DNA of 64,000 nucleotides, taken from Escherichia phage ZX4221. This document shows positions 10,307 through 17,146 of this stretch, in pieces; position 1 is the stretch's first letter, and each line of letters begins with the position of its first letter. The notes under the pieces were generated by a model. That model was not told where the DNA came from and searched no databases. It worked only from the letters and a program-made list of their open reading frames with translations. The position numbers and the translations under genes are program-made. Location of the stretch: sequence record OR498728.1. One strand, 5' to 3'.

Positions 10307-11722
10307 ATGAGCGAATTATTTAAACATGCGCACCTTCATGCAGGTCGAACTGAAAATGGTGCTGTAAACCATACTTCATCAATGTCTGCTCTGGTAGACT
10401 TCTACAAAGCCGCTGGCTCAAGCCGTAGCAATGTAGAAATCTTACCAGACCTGTTCTACAAAGCTTTGCGTGAGGATGTTGATGTTGCAGTTCGTATTTT
10501 ACTGCATATGCGAGATGTACGAGAAGGTATGGGTGAGCGTAAAGCTTTCCGAACTGTTTTACTTCAAGCGATTGAAGATAAGGTTTTAGAACCTACACAG
10601 GTTCTTCGCATTATGGATAAGATTGCAGAGCTTGGTCGTTTTGATGACTTCAAAATCTTCGTAGGTACTCGTTTTGAGACAGATGCCTTCAAACATTTAG
10701 AAGCAGCATTACTAGACCCTGCAACAGCAGGTTTAGCGGCTAAGTGGTTACCACGAGTAAAACCACGCCACAAACAGTTTGTAAAACGTTTCTGTAAGTT
10801 TGCAAACTTAAGTGAGAAGGAGTATCGCACACTGTTATCTGCACTGTCCGATACGGTTGAGCAAAAAATCTCTGCTAATGAGTTTGGTAAGATTGACTAC
10901 AGCAAGATTCCTTCACTCGCTGCTGCACGTTACCAAAAGCTCTTTAACCGTAAAGATGGTGAACGTTACAAAGCTTATATCGAGTCACTCTCAAAGGGTG
11001 AGGCTAAGATTAACGCTGGTGCTGTTTACCCATACGATGTGATTAAATCTATCAAGTATGGTAATGCAGGTGTTGCTAATGAGCAGTGGAAAGCACTACC
11101 AAACTGGATGGCAGAGGGTGAAAACATCTTGTGTATGACTGATGTTTCAAGCTCAATGTCTTGGGTGAATCTTGGTTCAATCACTGCCCTTGATATTGGC
11201 GTATCACTTGCCTTGTATGTAGCAGAACGCAATACAGGTTGCTTTAAGAATGAGTTAATGGTTTATTCAACAAACCCTCACTTCATCGAACTGAGTGGTG
11301 ATTTGAGAAACCGTCACCGTCAGGTAATGCGTCATGTTGAATATGGTTCAACTAACTTACAAGCAGCTTTTGACCGCATTCTTGAAATAGGTAAGAGAAA
11401 CAACTTGACTCAGAAAGATATGCCAAGTAAGCTTATTATCTTCTCTGATATGGAGTTTAATCAGGTTGATGGTGCAAATGGTCGTACAAACTTTGAAGCA
11501 ATTCAGAGTAAGTACAAAAAAGCTGGATACGAAATGCCACAACTAGTATTCTGGTACTTAGCAAACCGTAATGGTACTTGCGAAGTATCTGTTAAAGATA
11601 ATGGTGTAGCAATGGTATCAGGGTTCTCTCCAGCCACTTTAAAAGCTCTGCTTGGTGGTGAGAAGTTTGACCCAATCAACGTAATGCTCAAAGCAGTAAT
11701 GGTTGACCGTTACATCTGGTAA
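10307..11722 (+). CDS. vWA (MIDAS) domain protein, putatively Ro60/TROVE-like RNA-binding protein
   Basis: 471 aa; C-terminal half has MIDAS-like TDVSSSM ... GSTN ... FSDME; N-terminal TENGAV...ALVDFYKAAGSSR resembles the start of TROVE domains from memory; good RBS; gene is certain, TROVE assignment is inference. Confidence 0.6.
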   Translation: MSELFKHAHLHAGRTENGAVNHTSSMSALVDFYKAAGSSRSNVEILPDLFYKALREDVDVAVRILLHMRDVREGMGERKAFRTVLLQAIEDKVLEPTQVLRIMDKIAELGRFDDFKIFVGTRFETDAFKHLEAALLDPATAGLAAKWLPRVKPRHKQFVKRFCKFANLSEKEYRTLLSALSDTVEQKISANEFGKIDYSKIPSLAAARYQKLFNRKDGERYKAYIESLSKGEAKINAGAVYPYDVIKSIKYGNAGVANEQWKALPNWMAEGENILCMTDVSSSMSWVNLGSITALDIGVSLALYVAERNTGCFKNELMVYSTNPHFIELSGDLRNRHRQVMRHVEYGSTNLQAAFDRILEIGKRNNLTQKDMPSKLIIFSDMEFNQVDGANGRTNFEAIQSKYKKAGYEMPQLVFWYLANRNGTCEVSVKDNGVAMVSGFSPATLKALLGGEKFDPINVMLKAVMVDRYIW

Positions 11723-11730
11723 AAAGTTTA

Positions 11731-11768
11731 AAAAGGGTATTGACAATGTGTTTAATACCCTTTAATAT
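11731..11768 (+). promoter_or_regulatory. Sigma70-like promoter for the tRNA array, embedded in a hairpin
   Basis: TTGACA 11740-45, 17 nt spacer, TAATAT 11763-68; flanked by 9 bp inverted repeat AAAGGGTAT/ATACCCTTT. Confidence 0.55.
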
Positions 11769-11830: not shown

Positions 11831-11860
11831 TTGACAACCACTAAAAAATAATGTTAAAGT
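11831..11860 (+). promoter_or_regulatory. Possible second promoter upstream of first tRNA
   Basis: TTGACA at 11831-36 with weak -10 about 17-18 nt downstream. Confidence 0.3.
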
Positions 11861-11886
11861 GGTTACATAGAGTTTGAAAAGTTTAT

Positions 11887-11963
11887 CTCTGTTTAGCTCA
11901 GCTTGGTAGAGCGTTCCGTTTGGGGCGGTAAGGCCGGAGGTTCAAGTCCTCCAACAGAGACCA
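11887..11963 (+). tRNA. tRNA-Pro (anticodon TGG)
   Basis: Hand-folded: acceptor CTCTGTT/AACAGAG, D-stem GCTC/GAGC, anticodon loop TTTGGGG, T-arm GGAGG-TTCAAGT-CCTCC, CCA encoded. Confidence 0.75.
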
Positions 11964-11970
11964 AATTAAT

Positions 11971-12048
11971 GTTCCAGTAGACAAAACGGTAAAGTCACCA
12001 CTCTTTCAAAGTGGATATTTGAGGGTTCAAATCCCTTCTGGAACGCCA
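11971..12048 (+). tRNA. tRNA-Glu (anticodon TTC)
   Basis: Acceptor GTTCCAG/CTGGAAC, anticodon stem CCACT/AGTGG with loop CTTTCAA, T-loop TTCAAAT, CCA encoded. Confidence 0.7.
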
Positions 12049-12055
12049 GTCTTGA

Positions 12056-12128
12056 CAGAAGACCAATTGCAGCAAACTTAATCTTATTCATCTGACACGA
12101 AATCGGACAAAGAAGAGATTTGGTCTGG
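12056..12128 (+). ncRNA. Stem-closed structured element A (CAGAAGACC ... GGTCTGG family), Y-RNA-like candidate
   Basis: 5' CAGAAGACCAA pairs with 3' TTGGTCTGG (7 bp); conserved 5' box CAGAAGACCnnnTnCAGCAA; inner hairpin AATCT/AGATT; directly follows tRNA-Glu. Confidence 0.4.
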
Positions 12129-12139
12129 TCATTAAGAAT

Positions 12140-12216
12140 TGCGGGTATAGAGAAAGGGCGTCTCACATGTCTCATTAGCATGGTATCGGCAGGTTCGACT
12201 CCTGCACCCGCCTCCA
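12140..12216 (+). tRNA. tRNA-Met (anticodon CAT), copy 1
   Basis: T-arm GCAGG-TTCGACT-CCTGC, acceptor TGCGGGT/ACCCGCC with mismatch at pair 1-72, anticodon loop CTCATTA; CCA encoded. Confidence 0.6.
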
Positions 12217-12222
12217 ATTTTG

Positions 12223-12283
12223 CAGAAGACCGTATTCAGCAACAAACTACTTTTTGCGGATAAAAGAAAAAAACACGGTCTGG
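12223..12283 (+). ncRNA. Stem-closed structured element B (same family)
   Basis: 5' CAGAAGACCGT pairs with 3' ACGGTCTGG (7 bp); same 5' box as element A. Confidence 0.4.
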
Positions 12284-12294
12284 CAATGTATTAA

Positions 12295-12371
12295 GGTTAG
12301 GAAGCACATAAGGTATGTGCGGTCGCCTGTTAAGCGAATGGCACAGGGTTCGAATCCCTGACTAACCGCCA
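12295..12371 (+). tRNA. tRNA-Asn (anticodon GTT)
   Basis: D-stem GCAC/GTGC, anticodon loop CTGTTAA, T-arm CAGGG-TTCGAAT-CCCTG, acceptor GGTTAGG/ACTAACC, CCA encoded. Confidence 0.7.
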
Positions 12372-12380
12372 AATTTAAAT

Positions 12381-12468
12381 GTGTCGTTATCCCGTAGATG
12401 GTAGCGGTGGGGACTGTAAATCCCTTGTCATTGAGACTCGGTAGGTTCGACTCCTACACGGCACACCA
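12381..12468 (+). tRNA. tRNA-Tyr (anticodon GTA), long variable arm
   Basis: 88 nt; acceptor GTGTCGT/ACGGCAC, anticodon stem GGGGA/TCCCT loop CTGTAAA, T-arm GTAGG-TTCGACT-CCTAC, CCA encoded. Confidence 0.7.
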
Positions 12469-12474
12469 AATAAA

Positions 12475-12552
12475 GGTTATGTAGTTTAATCTGGTTAAAA
12501 TACTCCCCTGTCACGGGAGATGATGAGGGTTCAAATCCCTTCGTAACCGCCA
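12475..12552 (+). tRNA. tRNA-Asp (anticodon GTC)
   Basis: Anticodon stem CTCCC/GGGAG perfect, loop CTGTCAC, T-loop TTCAAAT, acceptor GGTTATG/CGTAACC, CCA encoded. Confidence 0.75.
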
Positions 12553-12639
12553 AATTATAATAAGTATTTCAAGATGATGTTTTGAGAGGGCTATTTAGCC
12601 CCTCCCTTAAAGAGTTCTTACGAGTATTCTTTAAAGGAG

Positions 12640-12713
12640 CAGAAGACCAAATGCAGCAAGAATGTATGAAATTTCAAGCCAATTTAATTTTGAAAATTTA
12701 AACTTGGTCTGGC
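12640..12713 (+). ncRNA. Stem-closed structured element C (same family)
   Basis: 5' CAGAAGACCAA ... 3' TTGGTCTGG; inner hairpin AAATTTCAA/TTGAAATTT. Confidence 0.4.
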
Positions 12714-12725
12714 TCAACAAATTTA

Positions 12726-12857
12726 CAGAAGACCGTTTACAGCAAAACTTAAACAATCTATTTCTCCGGTAAAGAAAAGGCGAAGGTTCGATTCCTTCAC
12801 TCGGCAGATGTCGAGTTGGTGTAATGGTAGCACTTAAGATGATAAACAACGGTCTGG
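12726..12857 (+). ncRNA. Stem-closed structured element D enclosing a circularly permuted tRNA-like module; Y-RNA (YrlA-type) candidate
   Basis: Outer 8 bp stem AGACCGTT/AACGGTCT; inside, in order: anticodon-like arm TTTCT-CCGGTAA-AGAAA, T-arm GAAGG-TTCGATT-CCTTC, ACTCGGC-A-GAT-GTCGAGT acceptor hairpin, D-arm GTGT-AATGGTA-GCAC. Confidence 0.5.
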
Positions 12858-12860
12858 TAA

Positions 12861-12999
12861 TTATCTTTGTAGATAAGTTATTAAGCTTCCCTGTGAGTAT
12901 GCGACCACAAAGGTGAAAGGGTAGATTCTAGATTTAACCCGAAAAGACACATCGCTACAGACCTTAAGCAAGTCTGGGTAGCTTATCTACAAAGATAAT
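12861..12999 (+). ncRNA. Structured element bounded by a perfect 17 bp inverted repeat
   Basis: TTATCTTTGTAGATAAG (12861-77) and its exact reverse complement (12983-99) enclose ~105 nt with internal hairpins. Confidence 0.4.
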
Positions 13000-13004
13000 T
13001 TAAT

Positions 13005-13080
13005 GGAAGTGTAGCAGAATGGTGATGCGGCAGACTTTTAATCTGACAGGCGATGGGTTCGAATCCCTCCACTTCTACCA
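13005..13080 (+). tRNA. tRNA-Lys (anticodon TTT)
   Basis: Acceptor GGAAGTG/CACTTCT, anticodon loop CTTTTAA, T-loop TTCGAAT with imperfect T-stem ATGGG/CCCTC, CCA encoded. Confidence 0.6.
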
Positions 13081-13084
13081 ATAT

Positions 13085-13161
13085 GGTTCAGTCGCAGATA
13101 AGGTAATGCAGGGGTTTCATAAGCCCTATGAATGTGGGTTCGATTCCCATCTGAACCTCCA
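13085..13161 (+). tRNA. tRNA-Met (anticodon CAT), copy 2 (initiator, elongator or Ile-lysidine not resolved)
   Basis: Acceptor GGTTCAG/CTGAACC perfect, anticodon stem GGGGT/GCCCT loop TTCATAA, T-arm GTGGG-TTCGATT-CCCAT, CCA encoded. Confidence 0.7.
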
Positions 13162-13162
13162 A

Positions 13163-13238
13163 GCTGGTATAGTTAAGAAGGTTATAACACTCCCCTGATA
13201 AGGGAACATCGGTGGTTCGATTCCACCTACCAGTACCA
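13163..13238 (+). tRNA. tRNA-Ile (anticodon GAT)
   Basis: D-stem GTTA/TAAC, anticodon loop CTGATAA, T-arm GGTGG-TTCGATT-CCACC, acceptor GCTGGTA/TACCAGT, CCA encoded. Confidence 0.7.
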
Positions 13239-13253
13239 ATTCCAATAAAGTTG

Positions 13254-13282
13254 TTGACATTGAGATGTGACCACTTTATAGT
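13254..13282 (+). promoter_or_regulatory. Internal sigma70-like promoter within tRNA array
   Basis: TTGACA 13254-59, 17 nt spacer, TATAGT 13277-82. Confidence 0.55.
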
Positions 13283-13574
13283 AACTAAAATACTTCATAA
13301 TATGTATAATTCAAACACCAATACATGAGTGTTAGACGTAACACAATGTGGGGAAATTTGTTGTACATATTCTGAATAGTTTTCGTTGCGTAGCGTCTAT
13401 TTTGCAAACTTAAAATAAATGCAAACGACAATGTTTTTCTGGCAGTAGCTTGATAGGCTAAACACCAGTGAGGTCTTCCAACCCCTCATCAAAGAATTTG
13501 GCGTACTCGCCCACGGTATGATTAATAAGGTGGGCATCTTTAAGGGCTTTTTAAGAGAGTCTTTAAAGATTAAT

Positions 13575-13651
13575 GCACCCTTAGTTCAACTGGACAGAGC
13601 AAATGACTTCTAATCATTGAGTTACAGGTTCGAATCCTGTAGGGTGTGCCA
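13575..13651 (+). tRNA. tRNA-Arg (anticodon TCT)
   Basis: Anticodon stem AATGA/TCATT perfect, loop CTTCTAA, T-arm ACAGG-TTCGAAT-CCTGT, acceptor GCACCCT/AGGGTGT, CCA encoded. Confidence 0.75.
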
Positions 13652-13793
13652 AATAGTTAGCAGATTGCTTAGACGACCTTATCGGGTCTCCGTGTAAGGA
13701 GGTGGTCTGTATCTCATGTTTTCCAGAACATGTAAATAATCTGAGAAGGGGCTTTACAGTGTTGCGAAAATACGGTAAGCTTCGAATTATAGT

Positions 13794-13876
13794 GTGGGAC
13801 GATGTTAAGACTCTAAGGCATGAGCAACGGCCTCCAAAACCGTTTCAAAGGGGTTCAACTCCTCCGTCCCATGCCA
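13794..13876 (+). tRNA. tRNA-Trp-like (anticodon CCA) with atypical extended D-region
   Basis: Acceptor GTGGGAC/GTCCCAT, anticodon arm ACGGC-CTCCAAA-ACCGT, T-loop TTCAACT, CCA encoded; about 8 extra nt between acceptor and D-stem, so canonical fold not achieved by hand. Confidence 0.4.
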
Positions 13877-13889
13877 AAGTCTTATTAGG

Positions 13890-13977
13890 GGTAGGTAGCG
13901 GCTAATGGTAGCCAAACTGTCTTGAAAACAGTTGCCACTGTAGAGATACGGTGAGGGTTCGACTCCTTTACTTACCG
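13890..13977 (+). tRNA. tRNA-Ser (anticodon TGA), long variable arm, CCA not encoded
   Basis: Acceptor GGTAGGT/ACTTACC, 3 bp D-stem, anticodon stem ACTGT/ACAGT perfect with loop CTTGAAA, ~20 nt variable arm, T-loop TTCGACT. Confidence 0.6.
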
Positions 13978-14235
13978 CCTAATAAGATTTTACACCGTCC
14001 ATGCTTGCTCGCATTTTCGGTTTATCCCTCGTGTATTGTCGTACACACTGATAAAGCACCTAGTAGGTGTCACGGAGAAGAGATAATATCAAGCTCTCCA
14101 AAGGTTCTAGTCACCGGATTGAACAAGACTATGCAAAGACCTAAATAGGTCTTTTTAGAGGGCTTCTAAGGTTATTACAGCTTGTTGTGGAACCTTGTTG
14201 CTTAGGTTCTTAGAAGTTCTCTAAAAAGATTTAAT

Positions 14236-14312
14236 GCACCTATAGCCCAACTGGTAGAGGCAGCAGACTTAGAATCTGCTCAGTGTGAGTTCGAATCTCT
14301 CTAGGTGTACCA
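14236..14312 (+). tRNA. tRNA-Leu-type anticodon TAG, class I (short variable arm) architecture
   Basis: 77 nt; acceptor GCACCTA/TAGGTGT, anticodon stem GCAGA/TCTGC perfect, loop CTTAGAA, 5 nt variable loop, discriminator A, CCA encoded. Confidence 0.6.
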
Positions 14313-14319
14313 AATTAAT

Positions 14320-14395
14320 GCAGGTGTAGCAAAATGGTTATGCGGCTGACTCTTAATCAGTAAGACGATGGGTTCAATTCCCTCCACCTGTACCA
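14320..14395 (+). tRNA. tRNA-Lys (anticodon CTT)
   Basis: Paralog of tRNA-Lys(TTT): acceptor GCAGGTG/CACCTGT, anticodon loop CTCTTAA, T-loop TTCAATT with same imperfect T-stem, CCA encoded. Confidence 0.6.
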
Positions 14396-14401
14396 AACAT
14401 T

Positions 14402-14477
14402 GGGGATGTAGTTTACATGGTTAAAACATAAGTTTTGCAAACTTAAGTACAGGGTTCAATTCCCTGCTTCTCCACCA
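14402..14477 (+). tRNA. tRNA-Ala (anticodon TGC)
   Basis: G3:U70 wobble pair present in acceptor stem; anticodon stem TAAGT/ACTTA perfect, loop TTTGCAA; T-arm CAGGG-TTCAATT-CCCTG; CCA encoded. Confidence 0.75.
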
Positions 14478-14483
14478 ATTAGT

Positions 14484-14558
14484 GCATCCATAGTTTAAAC
14501 GGGAAAATTACAGTCTTCCAAACTGAGGTTGAGGGTTCGATTCCCTCTGGATGCTCCA
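14484..14558 (+). tRNA. tRNA-Gly (anticodon TCC)
   Basis: Acceptor GCATCCA/TGGATGC perfect, anticodon loop CTTCCAA, T-arm GAGGG-TTCGATT-CCCTC, CCA encoded. Confidence 0.75.
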
Positions 14559-14565
14559 AATTAAT

Positions 14566-14641
14566 GCTCCTATCGTATAATTGGCTATTACGGTTGCCTT
14601 GTAAGCAACTTATCAGGGTTCGAATCCTTGTGGGAGCACCA
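14566..14641 (+). tRNA. tRNA-Thr (anticodon TGT)
   Basis: Anticodon stem GTTGC/GCAAC perfect, loop CTTGTAA, T-arm CAGGG-TTCGAAT-CCTTG, acceptor GCTCCTA/TGGGAGC, CCA encoded. Confidence 0.75.
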
Positions 14642-14645
14642 ATTC

Positions 14646-14731
14646 AGAGGTCAAGTGAAAGACCGCTGGTGTCAACTGAAGACCGTAACAAATTCCACGG
14701 AGTTGAGTTAGCGGCACAACTTCAGACCTCT
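14646..14731 (+). ncRNA. Structured element E, divergent relative of the CAGAAGACC family
   Basis: Outer stem AGAGGTC/GACCTCT; contains CTGAAGACCGTAACAAATT resembling the family 5' box; nested stems CCGCT/AGCGG and CTGAAG/CTTCAG. Confidence 0.3.
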
Positions 14732-14736
14732 TTCAT

Positions 14737-14811
14737 ACTCGCTTAGTTTATATGGTAAAACATCACCCTTACAAGATGGAGAAAAAGGTTCAAGTCCTTT
14801 AGTGAGTACCA
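14737..14811 (+). tRNA. tRNA-Val (anticodon TAC)
   Basis: D-stem GTTT/AAAC, anticodon loop CTTACAA, T-arm AAAGG-TTCAAGT-CCTTT, acceptor ACTCGCT/AGTGAGT, CCA encoded. Confidence 0.7.
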
Positions 14812-14812
14812 T

Positions 14813-14890
14813 GTTCCAGTATCCCAATTGGCAGAGGATGCAAGCTCAAACCTTGTACTAGTGACGGTTCGAATCCGTCTTGGAACACCA
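14813..14890 (+). tRNA. tRNA-Leu-type anticodon CAA, class I (short variable arm) architecture
   Basis: 78 nt; acceptor GTTCCAG/TTGGAAC, anticodon stem GCAAG/CTTGT, loop CTCAAAC, ~6 nt variable loop, T-arm GACGG-TTCGAAT-CCGTC, discriminator A, CCA encoded. Confidence 0.55.
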
Positions 14891-14895
14891 ATTTT

Positions 14896-14971
14896 GCAGG
14901 ATTAGTTCAAATGGATAGAGCAACAGTCTACGAAGCTGTTAATAGGGGTTCGAATCCCTTATCCTGCGCCA
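14896..14971 (+). tRNA. tRNA-Arg (anticodon ACG)
   Basis: Acceptor GCAGGAT/ATCCTGC perfect, D-stem GTTC/GAGC, anticodon loop CTACGAA, T-loop TTCGAAT, CCA encoded. Confidence 0.75.
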
Positions 14972-14989
14972 GATAAGTAAGAGGAATTT

Positions 14990-15232
14990 ATGCAAACATT
15001 AATCGTCGTTGAACATGAAAATTCCAATAGTATTGAGTTTGTAAGGGTTCCCACTATAGATACCCACATTTTCTTGAAAGTCGGATGGGGATGTGACCCA
15101 ATAAAAGTAGAAAATTTTATTGGTCATTACTTTGGTGGAAGACAACTTAAAAGCGTCAATTTTGAGACAATGTTACCAGAAAACTCAGAAACAAATAATA
15201 ATGTTTATCTCCTTACGAGGATTAGACAATGA
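14990..15232 (+). CDS. hypothetical protein inside tRNA array (80 aa)
   Basis: AAGAGGA Shine-Dalgarno 6 nt before ATG; stop overlaps next start (ATGA). Confidence 0.45.
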   Translation: MQTLIVVEHENSNSIEFVRVPTIDTHIFLKVGWGCDPIKVENFIGHYFGGRQLKSVNFETMLPENSETNNNVYLLTRIRQ

Positions 15233-15786
15233 GATATCTGAAGTATGCTTCATGGATTTTCCTAGCTTTGTTAGACCCATTGGCAGCAACCTTAGCAGTT
15301 ATCTTAGCACCCTTTGTAGTCCCATTCTACAGTGAGAAGAAAGGCCATCTACCTTTTGGATTCAGATGGATGGAGACATATGACAACCCGATTGATGGCG
15401 ATGAAGGTCATATGAAACGATGGGCTAAGATTAGAAAGATTGGTAAGCTCGGTGTCTATATGCAGAGAGTTGGCTGGCTCTGGAGAAACAAAGCTTATAA
15501 CTTCTCTTACCATGTGTTAGGAAGAGATGTAAAAGATGTTACTAAGTGGAAAGGTAATATCAACGTGAGTTCTGACCCTGAAGATAATCAGACAGGTTAT
15601 CTCCTAATGTGGAACAGTAATGCTTGGGGATTATTTGCTTTTATCCCATCAATTAAAATCTTTGGTAAACAATTCTACTGGAGAATTTATGTTGGATGGA
15701 AACTTAAAAGTGTTGTCCCAGAAGAAAGAGCATTCTCAAGGGAAAGAGTTATGTTGGCATTCTTTATTCATCCACTGAGAAAGTAA
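15229..15786 (+). CDS. hypothetical protein with hydrophobic N-terminus inside tRNA array (185 aa)
   Basis: ORF-track ORF; translationally coupled to 14990..15232; N-terminal WIFLALLDPLAATLAVILAPFVVPF looks membrane-associated. Confidence 0.5.
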   Translation: MRYLKYASWIFLALLDPLAATLAVILAPFVVPFYSEKKGHLPFGFRWMETYDNPIDGDEGHMKRWAKIRKIGKLGVYMQRVGWLWRNKAYNFSYHVLGRDVKDVTKWKGNINVSSDPEDNQTGYLLMWNSNAWGLFAFIPSIKIFGKQFYWRIYVGWKLKSVVPEERAFSRERVMLAFFIHPLRK

Positions 15787-15794
15787 AGATTTAA

Positions 15795-15870
15795 AGGGGA
15801 TTAGTTTACAAGGTTAAAACCTCGGTCTTTGAAATCGAAGAAGTTGGTTCAATTCCAACATCCCCCGCCA
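15795..15870 (+). tRNA. tRNA-Gln (anticodon TTG)
   Basis: Anticodon stem TCGGT/ATCGA, loop CTTTGAA, T-arm GTTGG-TTCAATT-CCAAC, A1-C72 mismatch at top of acceptor, discriminator G, CCA encoded. Confidence 0.65.
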
Positions 15871-15872
15871 AT

Positions 15873-15951
15873 GCTCCATTACTCCAATTGGCAGAGAGGC
15901 CAGACTTAAAATCTGTGTTATGTATCGGTTCGAATCCGATATGGAGTACCA
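15873..15951 (+). tRNA. tRNA-Leu-type anticodon TAA, class I (short variable arm) architecture
   Basis: 79 nt; acceptor GCTCCAT/ATGGAGT, anticodon stem CAGA/TCTG, loop CTTAAAA, ~7 nt variable loop, T-arm ATCGG-TTCGAAT-CCGAT perfect, discriminator A, CCA encoded. Confidence 0.55.
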
Positions 15952-15956
15952 AATTT

Positions 15957-16032
15957 AGCGGTATAGCATAACTGGCAATGCAGCAGTCTCTGAAGCTGTC
16001 TTATTAAGGTTCAAATCCTTATGCCGCTGCCA
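15957..16032 (+). tRNA. tRNA-Gln (anticodon CTG)
   Basis: Acceptor AGCGGTA/TGCCGCT, D-stem GCAT/ATGC, anticodon loop CTCTGAA, T-arm TAAGG-TTCAAAT-CCTTA, discriminator G, CCA encoded. Confidence 0.65.
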
Positions 16033-16063
16033 CTTCTAAGGGTTCTTACGAGAGTCCTTAAAT

Positions 16064-16139
16064 GTGGCCTTATCATAAATGGTAATGACCCATGCTGTGA
16101 ACATGGTCTATACGGGTTCAAATCCCGTAGGTCACCCCA
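16064..16139 (+). tRNA. tRNA-His (anticodon GTG)
   Basis: Anticodon stem CCATG/CATGG perfect, loop CTGTGAA, D-stem TCAT/ATGA, T-arm ACGGG-TTCAAAT-CCCGT, discriminator C; no encoded G-1 (preceding base is T). Confidence 0.7.
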
Positions 16140-16145
16140 ATTTAT

Positions 16146-16221
16146 AGTCCAAGTAGCTTATATGGTTAAAGCGCGTGTCTGAAAAACATGAGAAGAGGGT
16201 TCAAATCCCACTGGACTACCA
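16146..16221 (+). tRNA. tRNA-Phe (anticodon GAA), irregular acceptor/linker geometry
   Basis: Anticodon stem CGTGT/ACATG, loop CTGAAAA, D-stem GCTT/AAGC, T-loop TTCAAAT; acceptor pairs only as 6 bp or with a 4 nt linker to the D-stem; boundaries uncertain. Confidence 0.55.
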
Positions 16222-16237
16222 ATTTCAAAGGTGCTTA

Positions 16238-16972
16238 ATGAAAGAGATGACAGAACAAGGTAAGGAGATTTTTAATCTCTTAAAAACCGGTAGAGGGTTT
16301 TCTAATCCCCTTATTACTGGTGCAGCAGTTCTCGGTGGAACCGTAGCTGCCTCTACATCACTTGTAAGCTCTATTAGCTCTGTAACAGACCCTACAATAA
16401 AGGATAAGCTTATTGCTGCTGGACTTACAACAGTTCTGCTTAACAGCTTTACAACGAGTCTGACAAGCACTACATCAACCACTAAGACACTGACAGATTA
16501 TGGTCAAAAGTCCATTGATGAGTTTTCATCACGTATGCAGGTAGCAAAAGGATATTCCAATGTTATGGGTGCAGCAGGAGAACAAGTCGGTTGTACACCA
16601 TTTAGTGGTATTATGGGTGTTGCTACAGAATATGGTCAAAAAGCTATTGACACAATTAACAGTGCACTAGATGGTGTTAATGATGTGTTAAGTGACTTAC
16701 AAGATGCTATTGATGAAGGTCTTGATACTATTTCTGATTTAGCTAACCAAGCTGTTAGCAAGATTAATGAAGGTATCTCGAAGATTACAGCTTATGCAGA
16801 TGAAGTTGTGCAGATGATTGAAGAAGAAGCTGCCCTTATTGCAGAGTACCTTAAAACGAATATCAATGGGTTCTTAGCAGGTATCTTACCAGACTGGTTT
16901 GATGATGCTTGTAAAACTGGTGTAATTGATACTATTGCAACACCAGAAATGAAGAACGCATTACAGAAATAA
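16238..16972 (+). CDS. hypothetical Ser/Thr-rich protein (244 aa)
   Basis: ORF-track ORF trimmed to first ATG with RBS (AAAGG) that does not overlap tRNA-Phe. Confidence 0.5.
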   Translation: MKEMTEQGKEIFNLLKTGRGFSNPLITGAAVLGGTVAASTSLVSSISSVTDPTIKDKLIAAGLTTVLLNSFTTSLTSTTSTTKTLTDYGQKSIDEFSSRMQVAKGYSNVMGAAGEQVGCTPFSGIMGVATEYGQKAIDTINSALDGVNDVLSDLQDAIDEGLDTISDLANQAVSKINEGISKITAYADEVVQMIEEEAALIAEYLKTNINGFLAGILPDWFDDACKTGVIDTIATPEMKNALQK

Positions 16973-16973
16973 T

Positions 16974-17066
16974 GGAAGATTAACCCTAAAAGGTAAGGGA
17001 GCAGTTTGCTAAACTGCCAGTAGCTGAGAAATCGGTGTACCAGTTCAAGTCTGGTATCTTCCTCCA
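16974..17066 (+). tRNA. tRNA-Ser (anticodon GCT), long variable arm
   Basis: 93 nt; acceptor GGAAGAT/ATCTTCC perfect, anticodon stem GCAGT/ACTGC perfect, loop TTGCTAA, T-arm ACCAG-TTCAAGT-CTGGT, CCA encoded. Confidence 0.75.
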
Positions 17067-17070
17067 ATTT

Positions 17071-17146
17071 GAATCCGTGACAGAAATGGCTATGTGCCTG
17101 TCTGCAAAACAGGTTTATAAGGGTTCGAGTCCCTTCGGATTCTCCA
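17071..17146 (+). tRNA. tRNA-Cys (anticodon GCA)
   Basis: Acceptor GAATCCG/CGGATTC perfect, anticodon stem CCTGT/ACAGG perfect, loop CTGCAAA, T-arm AAGGG-TTCGAGT-CCCTT, CCA encoded. Confidence 0.75.

What the first reader, a model, noticed from the sequence alone, without database searches (positions are those of the whole stretch)
12861..12999. Perfect 17 bp inverted repeat enclosing a ~105 nt structured insert
TTATCTTTGTAGATAAG and its exact reverse complement bracket a segment with internal hairpins (CAGAC-CTTAAGCAA-GTCTG, CCCT...AGGG). A 17 bp perfect stem is far beyond chance and lies between element D and tRNA-Lys. It could be another stable ncRNA, a processing site or a recombination hotspot.
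Basis: seen in the sequence. Interest (0 to 1): 0.5.

Follow-up and report, generated by a model that had tools for sequence, protein, structure and literature searches.

The report
Conserved structured RNA in phage tRNA array
The inverted repeat is the 24-base-pair closing stem of a roughly 142-nt folded RNA, absent from Rfam and unannotated, that FelixO1-like phages keep just upstream of their tRNA-Lys gene, 1.1 kb downstream of a Ro60-like RNA-binding protein gene; its function is unknown.

Summary
The perfect inverted repeat is 19 bp, not 17 (12859-12877 / 12982-13000), and G·U pairs extend it to a 24-bp helix. No dinucleotide shuffle of the window gives a 17-mer inverted repeat. It is an RNA feature on the + strand, not a DNA feature.

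An element of the same design sits at the same site, 1-30 nt 5' of a tRNA-Lys. It is found in about 249 of 257 FelixO1-like phage records and in ten sequence lineages whose Ro60-like proteins are only 52-63% identical.

- **Closing stem:** always 20-30 bp, with largely different sequence. Cognate arms average -28 kcal/mol against -9 for non-cognate arms, and every stem holds 1-5 G·U pairs.
- **3' hairpin:** it co-varies and carries a conserved 9-nt loop, CYUWWGYAA. That loop appears to pair with the strand just after the 5' arm.
- **Databases:** nothing matches in Rfam or in E. coli genomes.
- **Context:** it occupies a tRNA-like slot in a promoter-driven tRNA array, next to four Y-RNA-like units and downstream of a Ro60-fold protein gene.

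Best reading: a stable small RNA excised by tRNA-processing enzymes, possibly with RNase III, and possibly a partner of the phage Ro60-like protein. Expression and function are untested.

The parts
12859..12882 (+). P1 5' arm (AAUUAUCUUUGUAGAUAAGUUAUU). The first 19 nt are the perfect repeat; the last 5 pair through G.U and A-U.
12883..12889 (+). J1/2, single-stranded. GCUU (12885-12888) is the proposed pseudoknot partner of loop positions 4-7 (AAGC, 12966-12969) of the 3' hairpin.
   Evidence: The exact partner 4-mer lies at nt 25-30 of the element in 9 of 11 representatives. It matches each lineage's own loop variant (AAGC/GCUU, UAGC/GCUA, UAGU/ACUA). This is inferred, not proven.
12890..12913 (+). 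H2, a predicted hairpin (CCUGUG / CACAAAGG) with loop AGUAUGCGAC. It varies between lineages.
   Evidence: Energy prediction only. Weak comparative support: helix 2 is 73% paired.
12919..12940 (+). H3 hairpin (GGGU...ACCC) with a conserved apical GAUUCUAGAUU in Felixounavirus, Suspvirus and Mooglevirus.
   Evidence: GC->AU compensatory change and AU->GU changes. Not recognisable in the more distant lineages.
12941..12957 (+). J3/4, with a semi-conserved CACAWC stretch (ACACAUCGCUA).
   Evidence: Cmsearch alignments and the sequences.
12958..12976 (+). H4 hairpin, CAGAC-CUUAAGCAA-GUCUG. A 5-6 bp stem with a conserved 9-nt loop, CYUWWGYAA.
   Evidence: it occurs once per locus, always 5' of a tRNA-Lys. 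In one search, 5 of 5 pairs show changes on both sides.
12977..13000 (+). P1 3' arm (GGUAGCUUAUCUACAAAGAUAAUU).
13001..13004 (+). UAAU spacer before tRNA-Lys. It is the same A/U-rich ..UUAAU leader that precedes most tRNAs of the array, so an RNase P cut at 13005 would leave the RNA's 3' end at the base of P1.
   Evidence: table of leaders. The processing step is inferred.
13005..13080 (+). tRNA-Lys(UUU), the constant downstream neighbour (context).
12723..12860 (+). Context: unit D, a Y-RNA-like RNA that contains a circularly permuted tRNA (V arm, T arm, closed acceptor stem, D arm). It abuts P1.
   Evidence: ARAGORN calls the re-permuted sequence a tRNA. The layout matches that of YrlA as described in PMC4201824.
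11831..11860 (+). Context: sigma-70-like promoter (TTGACA-18-TAAAGT), with another at 11740-11768, upstream of the tRNA-Pro...tRNA-Ile block that holds the element. No + strand terminator-like site lies between them and 13238.
   Evidence: consensus scan only
10307..11722 (+). Context: a 471-aa protein with a Ro60/TROVE + vWA fold (Pfam DUF2828 + DUF7788), 1.14 kb upstream on the same strand.

Best explanation
The inverted repeat is the closing helix (P1, 24 bp) of a small-RNA gene of about 142 nt, read from the + strand. The gene occupies a tRNA-like slot in the phage's tRNA array.

SHOWN. The helix and the 3' hairpin H4 are kept by compensatory change in every relative examined. Conservation is strand-specific through G.U pairs. 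The site is constant, just 5' of tRNA-Lys. The RNA matches no known family.

SUPPORTED BUT NOT PROVEN. The 9-nt loop of H4 pairs with the strand that follows the 5' arm. This pseudoknot would lock the junction at the top of P1.

INFERRED.
- The element is co-transcribed with the tRNAs from the sigma-70-like promoters at about 11740 and 11831.
- It is released like a tRNA. RNase P would cut 4 nt downstream at the 5' end of tRNA-Lys, and RNase E or exonucleases would trim back to P1.
- A helix of two or more turns is also a natural RNase III substrate. That would separate the upstream Y-like RNAs from the downstream tRNAs, much as rRNA processing stems do.
- The excised RNA then persists as a stable, compact ncRNA.

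MOST LIKELY ROLE, the least certain step (about 0.3). It is a protein-binding platform for the phage's Ro60-like protein, which is encoded 1.1 kb upstream. In that case it is a Y-RNA-like partner with the topology of Deinococcus Yrn1: a long terminal stem plus a structured module. It would act alongside the four shorter Y-like units A-D.
For: **Repeat and fold.**

**Orthologues.**
- The element sits at the same site in 189 Felixounavirus-type records plus 60 records with a diverged Suspvirus/Mooglevirus-type allele. That is about 249 of the 257 records that hold the neighbourhood.
- The diverged allele has the same length and keeps the pairs. In one search, 7 pairs change on both sides. In one search, 99.8% of cells are paired, against 26-50% when the partners are slid.
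- Remote lineages L033, L034, L035, L036 and L111-L115 carry a 20-30 bp closing stem of largely different sequence at the same place.

**Covariation in the stem.**
- Cognate 5'/3' arms average -28.4 kcal/mol, against -8.6 for non-cognate arms.
- Every P1 holds 1-5 G.U pairs.

**Model search.** A covariance model built only from the close clades recovers the remote copies as the top + strand hit in five of the seven distant loci. It recovers them as the top remaining hit in L112 and L034, after the strongest match on a tRNA-Asn region in L034. E-values run from 2e-5 to 0.29 with filters off.
- On those four remote copies, P1 is 100% paired with 15 of 23 pairs changed on both sides.
- On the same copies, H4 has 5 of 5 pairs changed on both sides.

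**H4 and the pseudoknot.**
- H4 with its loop occurs once per locus and always 5' of a tRNA-Lys.

**Array context.**
- All tRNA leaders share the UUAAU-like spacer. In L113 and L114 the element starts directly after tRNA-Ala.
- Promoters lie upstream and no terminator lies inside the block.

**Ro60-like protein.** The predicted structure (pLDDT 84, pTM 0.85) has all six best PDB matches to Ro60 proteins, at full length. The protein is homologous to the mycobacteriophage 'Ro-like RNA binding protein' and to the Listeria P100-like protein.

**Neighbouring unit D.** It is a permuted tRNA of YrlA layout (PMC4201824).

**Precedents for phage Ro60 with nearby Y-like RNAs.** PMC4201824, PMC12135203 and PMC12282133.
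Against: - No expression, end-mapping or binding data exist for this RNA, so stability and processing are inferred.
- P1 carries no conserved bulge. It also lacks the GNCGAAN0-1G / GGUCCGA Ro-binding motif.
- Neither the Rfam Y_RNA model nor the YrlA model matches the element.
- The interior lacks T- and D-arm features.
- The four neighbouring units A-D share a motif (AGA/G loop + AGACC/GGUCU + CAGCAA) that the element lacks. They may be the true Ro60 partners.
- One natural genome (L011) has lost the whole element together with half of unit D and half of tRNA-Lys, so it is dispensable at least for propagation.
- A 47%-identity relative (L037) has tRNA-Ala, tRNA-Lys(CUU) and tRNA-Lys(UUU) adjacent to each other with no such element.
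- The interior hairpins H2 and H3 are not conserved across lineages.
- All loci were fetched through the Ro60-like gene, so the co-occurrence with that gene is not an independent observation.
Confidence: 0.55

Rival explanations
1. It is purely a cis-acting processing or insulating hairpin. P1 is an RNase III site, like the stems that flank 16S and 23S rRNA or the T7 early-region sites. Its job is to cut the polycistronic precursor between the Y-like units and the tRNA-Lys/Met/Ile block. The interior is only a tolerated insert and is degraded afterwards.
For: - P1 is 20 bp or longer in all lineages, which is the length RNase III needs (established knowledge).
- Other long hairpins with little or no insert precede other tRNAs in the same arrays. 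Examples are 14150-14229 before tRNA-Leu and 13536-13570 before tRNA-Arg.
- Their 5' arms resemble P1: UCUUUUUAGAG against UCUUUGUAGAU. L033:10906-10993 has CUUUGUAGAU.
- The interior hairpins H2 and H3 vary widely between lineages.
Against: A simple cleavage hairpin does not need the following conserved features:
- a co-varying internal hairpin with a conserved 9-nt loop;
- a matching partner strand for that loop;
- a semi-conserved J3/4.

The insert length of about 90-140 nt is retained in every lineage rather than lost.
Confidence: 0.2
2. It is an RNA functionally tied to tRNA-Lys(UUU). It could be a decoy or inhibitor for host nucleases that attack tRNA-Lys, such as PrrC, RloC or PARIS AriB. 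Alternatively it could be a helper for folding or maturation of the adjacent phage tRNA-Lys.
For: - The element is always immediately 5' of a tRNA-Lys: ten of ten loci scanned, covering nine of the ten lineages, plus L115 and four further contigs.
- tRNA-Lys(UUU) is a classical target of anticodon nucleases, and phage tRNA-Lys variants can neutralise such defences. This point rests on my own knowledge and was not checked here.
- The H4 loop begins CUU, like the tRNA-Lys anticodon loop.
Against: - Gene order in these arrays is inherited as a block, so the adjacency may be synteny only.
- The H4 stem does not co-vary with the anticodon stem of the neighbouring tRNA-Lys (sequences).
- The H4 loop seems engaged in a pseudoknot rather than exposed.
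- L037 keeps tRNA-Lys without the element.
Confidence: 0.08
3. It is a self-cleaving ribozyme of an undescribed class that releases the neighbouring RNAs.
For: - It has a compact junction with a probable pseudoknot and lies between RNAs that need end formation.
- Self-cleaving ribozymes are known next to phage tRNAs. This point rests on my own knowledge.
Against: - No match to any Rfam ribozyme family at E <= 10.
- Few invariant nucleotides outside the H4 loop.
- The flanks already carry the generic RNase P and RNase E context.
Confidence: 0.04
4. It is a DNA-level element: a miniature inverted-repeat transposon, a recombination hotspot, a cruciform, or a palindromic protein-binding site. A small ORF is a further possibility.
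For: - A 19-bp perfect inverted repeat is typical of terminal inverted repeats.
- Several GenBank records annotate a 'hypothetical protein' over the region.
Against: - One copy per genome, and none in E. coli genomes.
- No target-site duplication (sequence).
- Orthologous copies at one site carry compensatory changes and strand-specific G.U pairs.
- The one deletion seen is T-arm recombination, not excision.
- The ORFs are only 30-36 aa, and 1-nt indels among close relatives break their frames.
Confidence: 0.02

Closest known systems
Bacterial and phage Y RNAs, in particular Deinococcus radiodurans Yrn1 (PMC4201824) and Thermus phage phiLo Yrl1/Yrl2 (PMC12135203)
   Same: - Encoded within about 1 kb of a Ro60-fold protein gene.
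- The 5' and 3' ends form a long stem that closes a structured module.
- The topology (stem, then internal arms, then stem) is that of Yrn1, not the permuted YrlA layout.
- Several Y-like RNAs are present per genome.
   Different: - No GNCGAA / GGUCCGA motif and no conserved bulge in the stem.
- No T-arm or D-arm.
- No hit to the Rfam Y_RNA or YrlA models.
- The Ro60-like protein is of the DUF2828 type.
- Binding is untested.
Bacteriophage T4 species 1 and species 2 stable RNAs (rnaC, rnaD), annotated at the end of the T4 tRNA cluster
   Same: - Non-tRNA RNAs of about 120-140 nt embedded in a phage tRNA cluster on the tRNA strand.
- Strongly folded: rnaC z = -4.6.
- From my own memory, not checked here: function unknown, processed with the tRNAs, and cleavage of species 1 RNA by RNase III was reported in the 1970s.
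   Different: - No sequence relation.
- rnaC carries a canonical T-arm (CCGGGUUCGAAUCCCGG) and a short terminal helix rather than a 24-bp stem.
- T4 has no Ro60-like gene nearby.
RNase III processing stems (flanks of 16S and 23S rRNA; T7 early-region sites)
   Same: - A helix of two or more turns, formed by sequences that bracket a structured RNA inside a polycistronic precursor.
- Placed where a cut would separate functional RNAs.
   Different: - Cleavage is not shown.
- The enclosed RNA here is small and of unknown function.
Abundant unannotated RNAs next to the DUF2828 / Rsr-like gene of Listeria phage CKA15 (P100-like), proposed to be Y RNAs (PMC12282133)
   Same: - The phage protein is homologous, at about 29% identity over the full length for P100-like Listeria phage records.
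- Unexplained, highly transcribed non-coding regions lie within 2 kb of it.
   Different: - A different phage group.
- Those RNAs are shown to be expressed but have no defined structure. For this element the opposite holds.

Membership tests
Y RNA (Ro60-associated; YrlA / Yrn1 / metazoan Y) | Encoded close to a Ro60/TROVE gene | tested here: met
   ORF 10307-11722 has a Ro60 fold: the top six PDB hits are all Ro60 proteins, with query TM-scores of 0.47-0.64. The element starts 1137 nt downstream on the same strand.
Y RNA (Ro60-associated; YrlA / Yrn1 / metazoan Y) | Long stem formed by the 5' and 3' ends | tested here: met
   A 24-bp P1. It is conserved by covariation in ten lineages.
Y RNA (Ro60-associated; YrlA / Yrn1 / metazoan Y) | Conserved Ro60-binding motif (GNCGAAN0-1G or GGUCCGA) with a bulged helix in the stem | tested here: not met
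   P1 is a near-perfect helix with no conserved bulge. A CGAA occurs only in the interior of the window's own variant and its close variant L015, and it is lost in most close relatives. No Rfam Y_RNA or YrlA hit at E <= 10.
Y RNA (Ro60-associated; YrlA / Yrn1 / metazoan Y) | tRNA-like module (T arm, D arm) as in YrlA | tested here: not met
   No tRNA or YrlA model hit and no ARAGORN call on 12859-13000. The neighbouring unit D does meet this feature.
Y RNA (Ro60-associated; YrlA / Yrn1 / metazoan Y) | Physical binding to Ro60 | not testable with these tools
   Needs RIP, CLIP or EMSA.
RNase III substrate / processing stem | Double-stranded helix of about two turns (roughly 20 bp or more) | tested here: met
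   20-30 bp in every lineage.
RNase III substrate / processing stem | Staggered cleavage that depends on rnc | not testable with these tools
   Needs end mapping in wild-type and rnc hosts.
T4-type stable RNAs of phage tRNA clusters (rnaC / rnaD) | Non-tRNA RNA gene inside a phage tRNA cluster, on the same strand, with no promoter or terminator of its own | tested here: met
T4-type stable RNAs of phage tRNA clusters (rnaC / rnaD) | Sequence or structure homology to rnaC or rnaD | tested here: not met
   The folds differ: rnaC has a T-arm and a short end helix. The shared GAGUAKGC-like string proved too common to mean anything.
T4-type stable RNAs of phage tRNA clusters (rnaC / rnaD) | Accumulates as a stable RNA in infected cells | not testable with these tools
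   No RNA-seq data are available here.
MITE / transposon with terminal inverted repeats | Multiple copies, target-site duplication, presence/absence by excision | tested here: not met
   A single copy. No duplication at the flanks. Orthologous diverged copies lie at one site. The deletion in L011 is T-arm recombination.
Intrinsic terminator | G+C-rich stem followed by a U run | tested here: not met
   The stem is A/U-rich and is followed by UUAAUGG. The scan finds no + strand terminator-like site there.
Any Rfam 15 family (including self-cleaving ribozymes, tRNA, tmRNA, 6S) | Covariance-model match | tested here: not met
   No match overlapping 12859-13000 at E <= 10.

The most novel reading that the evidence does not exclude
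The element is the founding member of an undescribed class of phage small RNAs. It would be a pseudoknot-locked module on a two-turn helix that works with the phage Ro60-like protein, or against a host nuclease that targets tRNA-Lys. Either way, it would protect or quality-control the phage's own tRNA pool during infection.
Probability: 0.15. Interest if true: 0.75.

Novelty: new variant of a known kind. Interest (0 to 1): 0.5.

Why it matters
Phage tRNA clusters have been known since the 1970s to carry extra stable RNAs, such as T4 species 1 and 2, whose function is still unknown. Bacterial and phage Ro60/Y-RNA systems are also poorly understood.

This is a well-defined case in an easily grown phage group: FelixO1-like phages of E. 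coli and Salmonella, with hundreds of sequenced isolates and use in typing and biocontrol. The locus combines three components:

- a Ro60-fold protein gene;
- four Y-like RNAs, one of them a permuted tRNA;
- a further conserved structured RNA with clear covariation.

All three sit in one promoter-driven array, and a natural deletion variant is already available. That makes the role of such RNAs directly testable. In hundreds of GenBank records the element is unannotated or overlaid by spurious 'hypothetical protein' calls.

Tried and rejected
- **Rfam.** A scan with permissive thresholds found nothing on the element.
- **PDB sequence and profile searches.** These were run with the upstream protein and found nothing useful. 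Only the fold search showed Ro60.
- **MAFFT alignment.** An alignment of all lineages put the distant 5' arms out of register, so it was not used for pair counts. I used the model-fitted alignment A4 and arm-swap energies instead.
- **Breadth.**
  - Model R1 with default filters found no copy in 79 more distant Ro60-like loci.
  - A descriptor scan of 80 metagenome loci found only close relatives.
  - As detectable here, the family is confined to Ounavirinae-like phages.
- **Mimic of the tRNA-Lys anticodon arm.** In the window, H4 reads CAGAC/GUCUG and the anticodon stem reads CAGA/UCUG. The two stems do not co-vary in other lineages, so I rejected this idea.
- **Link to T4 rnaC.** A GAGUAKGC motif seemed to connect the two, but the pattern is common and also occurs inside ordinary tRNAs.
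- **Pseudoknot test.** A permissive shuffle test on single sequences was not significant. Only the position-specific comparative test was informative.
- **Literature.** Searches for DUF2828, for Felixounavirus ncRNAs and for YrlA in phages found no description of this element. The search for T4 species I RNA returned nothing relevant.
- **E. coli genomes.** No similar sequence.
- **Small ORFs.** The ORFs 12824-12916 (+) and 12861-12971 (-) were rejected. They are 30-36 aa, and indels among close relatives break their frames.

Full report
**What the window is**

The 801 nt around the finding match 257 phage records at 80-99% identity. Nearly all are FelixO1-like myoviruses of Escherichia, Salmonella, Shigella and Citrobacter. 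The finding lies inside an array of 26 tRNA genes on the + strand, at 11887-17146.

**Checking the observation**

- The 17-mer and its exact reverse complement are at 12861-12877 and 12982-12998. They have no other near-matches in the window.
- The perfect repeat is in fact 19 bp (12859-12877 / 12982-13000).
- As RNA the helix continues through G-C, U.G, U-A, A-U, U.G and U.G to 24 bp (12859-12882 / 12977-13000).
- None of 100 dinucleotide-preserving shuffles of the window contained a 17-mer inverted repeat within 300 nt.
- The + strand folds at -45.6 kcal/mol, z = -4.96. The - strand folds almost as well, as any long palindrome must, so energy alone does not choose the strand.

**Conservation**

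- The 150-nt element is found at 92-100% identity in 189 phage records.
- A diverged allele is found in 60 more: Suspvirus, Mooglevirus, Shigella Sf13-like phages and some Felixounavirus. Together that is about 249 of the 257 records with the neighbourhood.
- In every record it is unannotated or covered by a 'hypothetical protein' call.
- The diverged allele sits at exactly the same place, between the last CAGAAGACC...GGTCTGG unit and tRNA-Lys. It has the same length (144-145 nt), and its changes in the stem are compensated.
- RNAalifold on 17 distinct sequences gives 37 pairs, 7 with changes on both sides.
- Pair counting gives 99.8% of cells paired, against 26-50% when partners are slid by 1-3 columns.

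**Remote relatives**

I fetched contigs that encode 52-63% identical homologues of the upstream protein.

- In L033/L111, L034, L035, L036/L115, L112, L113 and L114 there is again a 20-30 bp closing stem around 90-140 nt. It ends 1-30 nt before a tRNA-Lys.
- The arm sequences share only 8-75% identity. Each 5' arm pairs with its own 3' arm at a mean of -28.4 kcal/mol. It pairs with the 3' arms of other lineages at a mean of -8.6.
- Every stem contains 1-5 G.U pairs, 31 in all. These would be A.C mismatches on the opposite strand or in a DNA cruciform. Single-base variants among close relatives are mostly U.G or G.U (L002, L024), with one C.A (L009).
- The selected object is therefore an RNA read from the + strand, the strand of the tRNAs.

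**Model search**

A covariance model built only from the two close clades recovered L033 at E = 9e-14. With filters off it recovered L113, L035, L115, L114, L036, L112 and L034 as full-length + strand matches, with E from 2e-5 to 0.29. Five are the top hit in their locus. In L034 a match over a tRNA-Asn region scores higher.

On the four best remote matches:
- P1 is 100% paired, with 15 of 23 pairs changed on both sides.
- The 3' hairpin has 5 of 5 pairs changed on both sides.
- Slid controls fall to 32-46% paired.

That alignment is fitted to the model, which favours the structure, but the margin is large.

**Anatomy**

- **Conserved core.**
  - P1.
  - A short strand after its 5' arm (J1/2).
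  - A semi-conserved CACAWC stretch (J3/4).
  - Hairpin H4 (12958-12976), with a 5-6 bp stem and the 9-nt loop CYUWWGYAA.
- **H4 is specific.** H4 with that loop occurs once per locus and always 5' of a tRNA-Lys.
- **Variable interior.** The hairpins between J1/2 and J3/4 (H2, H3) differ between lineages. H3 is supported only within the close clades.
- **Probable pseudoknot.** The exact complement of loop positions 4-7 lies at nt 25-30 of the element in 9 of 11 representatives.
  - It follows the loop variant: AAGC with GCUU, UAGC with GCUA, UAGU with ACUA.
  - It occurs nowhere else in the interior.
  - L114 pairs in a shifted register. L036 and L115 are unclear.
  - I treat this as probable, not shown. 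A permissive per-sequence shuffle test was not significant.

**Transcription and processing context**

- Consensus scans find sigma-70-like sites at 11740-11768 and 11831-11860 upstream of tRNA-Pro, and another at 13254-13282 after tRNA-Ile. No + strand terminator-like site lies between.
- The element therefore lies in a block that reads Pro, Glu, unit A, Met, unit B, Asn, Tyr, Asp, unit C, unit D, the element, Lys, Met, Ile.
- Nearly all tRNA leaders end in a UUAAU-like spacer. The element's 3' arm is followed by that same spacer (UAAU), just where the CCA end of a preceding tRNA would be.
- In L113 and L114 the element starts directly after tRNA-Ala.
- It thus fills a tRNA-like slot, and the tRNA-processing enzymes would release it. 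This step is inference.
- A helix of two or more turns is also what RNase III needs (established knowledge). Other long hairpins with little or no insert precede tRNA-Leu (14150-14229) and tRNA-Arg (13536-13570), and their arms resemble P1. A processing role for the stem is therefore plausible.

**The neighbourhood points to a Ro60 system**

- The ORF at 10307-11722 matches only Pfam DUF2828 and DUF7788/vWA, and it has no sequence match in the PDB.
- Its predicted structure (pLDDT 84, pTM 0.85) has its six best PDB matches to Ro60 proteins at full length: Thermus phage phiLo, Deinococcus Rsr and Xenopus Ro60. Isolated vWA domains follow after a large gap.
- It is homologous over its full length to the mycobacteriophage 'Ro-like RNA binding protein' and to the Listeria P100-like protein. 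Abundant unexplained RNAs were reported next to that Listeria protein (PMC12282133).
- The four repeated units A-D share three features:
  - a co-varying outer 4-bp helix;
  - an AGA/G internal loop;
  - an AGACC/GGUCU helix followed by CAGCAA.
- Unit D holds a V arm, a T arm, a closed acceptor stem and a D arm in the permuted order described for YrlA (PMC4201824). ARAGORN calls the re-permuted sequence a tRNA.
- The element of the finding has a different design and lacks the described Ro-binding motifs. Its overall topology is that of Deinococcus Yrn1: a long terminal stem closing a structured module.

**What it is not**

- **Not a mobile element or recombination hotspot.**
  - There is one copy per genome and none in E. 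coli genomes.
  - There is no target-site duplication, and the orthologues are inherited vertically.
  - The one natural deletion found (L011) joins the T-arm of unit D to the T-arm of tRNA-Lys, removing the element with half of each neighbour. That also shows it is dispensable for propagation.
- **Not a terminator**.
- **Not a coding region**.
- **Not a member of any Rfam family**.
- **Not an obligate companion of tRNA-Lys.** A 47%-identity relative has tRNA-Ala, tRNA-Lys(CUU) and tRNA-Lys(UUU) adjacent to each other without it.
- **Not detectable in more distant Ro60-encoding phages**.

**Verdict**

The finding is a real, conserved, previously unannotated structured RNA gene of Ounavirinae-like phages.

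| Claim | My confidence |
|---|---|
| It is a selected + strand RNA structure | about 0.95 |
| It accumulates as a discrete stable RNA released by tRNA-type processing, possibly with RNase III | about 0.6 |
| It works with the phage Ro60-like protein | about 0.3 |

The closest analogues are the Y RNAs of Ro60 systems and the unexplained stable RNAs of the T4 tRNA cluster. It belongs to neither family by sequence or motif.

Noticed in passing
window 10307-11722 (+): A 471-aa protein known to Pfam only as DUF2828 + DUF7788. Its predicted fold is a full-length Ro60/TROVE + vWA ring. The family is widespread in phages: 692 phage records, including Vibrio, Aeromonas, Campylobacter, Listeria, Staphylococcus, Bacillus and mycobacteriophages.
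   Followed up: yes
window 12053-12132, 12220-12286, 12637-12716, 12723-12860 (+): Four Y-RNA-like units (A-D). They share a co-varying outer 4-bp helix, an AGA/G internal loop, an AGACCNN/NNGGUCU helix and CAGCAA. Unit D contains a circularly permuted tRNA (V arm, T arm, closed acceptor, D arm), as in YrlA. None reaches an Rfam threshold; units B and D get only sub-threshold matches.
   Followed up: partly
window 14150-14229 (+): A second long hairpin, with 21-nt arms that are 90% complementary and a 38-nt insert. It ends 6 nt before tRNA-Leu(UAG). Its 5' arm UCUUUUUAGAG resembles P1 of the finding. The L033 orthologue (10906-10993) has the identical core CUUUGUAGAU.
   Followed up: partly
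window 13876-13889 / 13978-13991: A 14-nt inverted repeat brackets tRNA-Ser(UGA) and would extend its acceptor stem. A shorter one brackets tRNA-Pro (11879-11893 / 11953-11967).
   Followed up: no
window 13796-13880 (+): A tRNA-like sequence with a 7-bp acceptor stem (TGGGACG/CGTCCCA), a T-arm and a ..GCCA end. ARAGORN does not call it, and Rfam tRNA-Sec scores only 23 bits. It may be a pseudo-tRNA or a tRNA-like RNA.
   Followed up: no
window 13254-13574 (+): A strong promoter-like site (TTGACA-17-TATAGT) lies right after tRNA-Ile. About 300 nt of non-tRNA sequence follow, containing an imperfect 27-nt inverted repeat (13283-13387). The region has weak sub-threshold tmRNA-like Rfam hits.
   Followed up: no
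L011 8450-8540 (IMGVR_UViG_2706796742): A natural deletion of about 268 nt made by recombination between the T-arm of unit D and the T-arm of tRNA-Lys. It removes the whole element of the finding and leaves a chimeric gene.
   Followed up: yes
L014, L019, L021, between tRNA-Lys and tRNA-Met: An insert of about 150 nt with its own inverted repeat (CCCTTAACTGAGAAAC...GTTTCTCTAACTAGGG). It is present in some relatives and absent from the window, where the two tRNAs are 4 nt apart.
   Followed up: no
L034 8839-9028, L036 8800-8995, L112 6587-6789, L113 6779-6973, L114 6673-6865, L115 6908-7076: In the 52-56% relatives, which lack units A-D, another element with a 21-30 bp closing stem and a 117-161-nt insert lies between the Ro60-like gene and tRNA-Pro. 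In L034 it begins CAGAAGAC, like units A-D.
   Followed up: partly
window 15229-15786 and 16175-16972 (+): Two ORFs (185 and 265 aa) interrupt the tRNA array. They were not examined. T4 has a homing endonuclease gene (segB) at a comparable position in its tRNA cluster.
   Followed up: no
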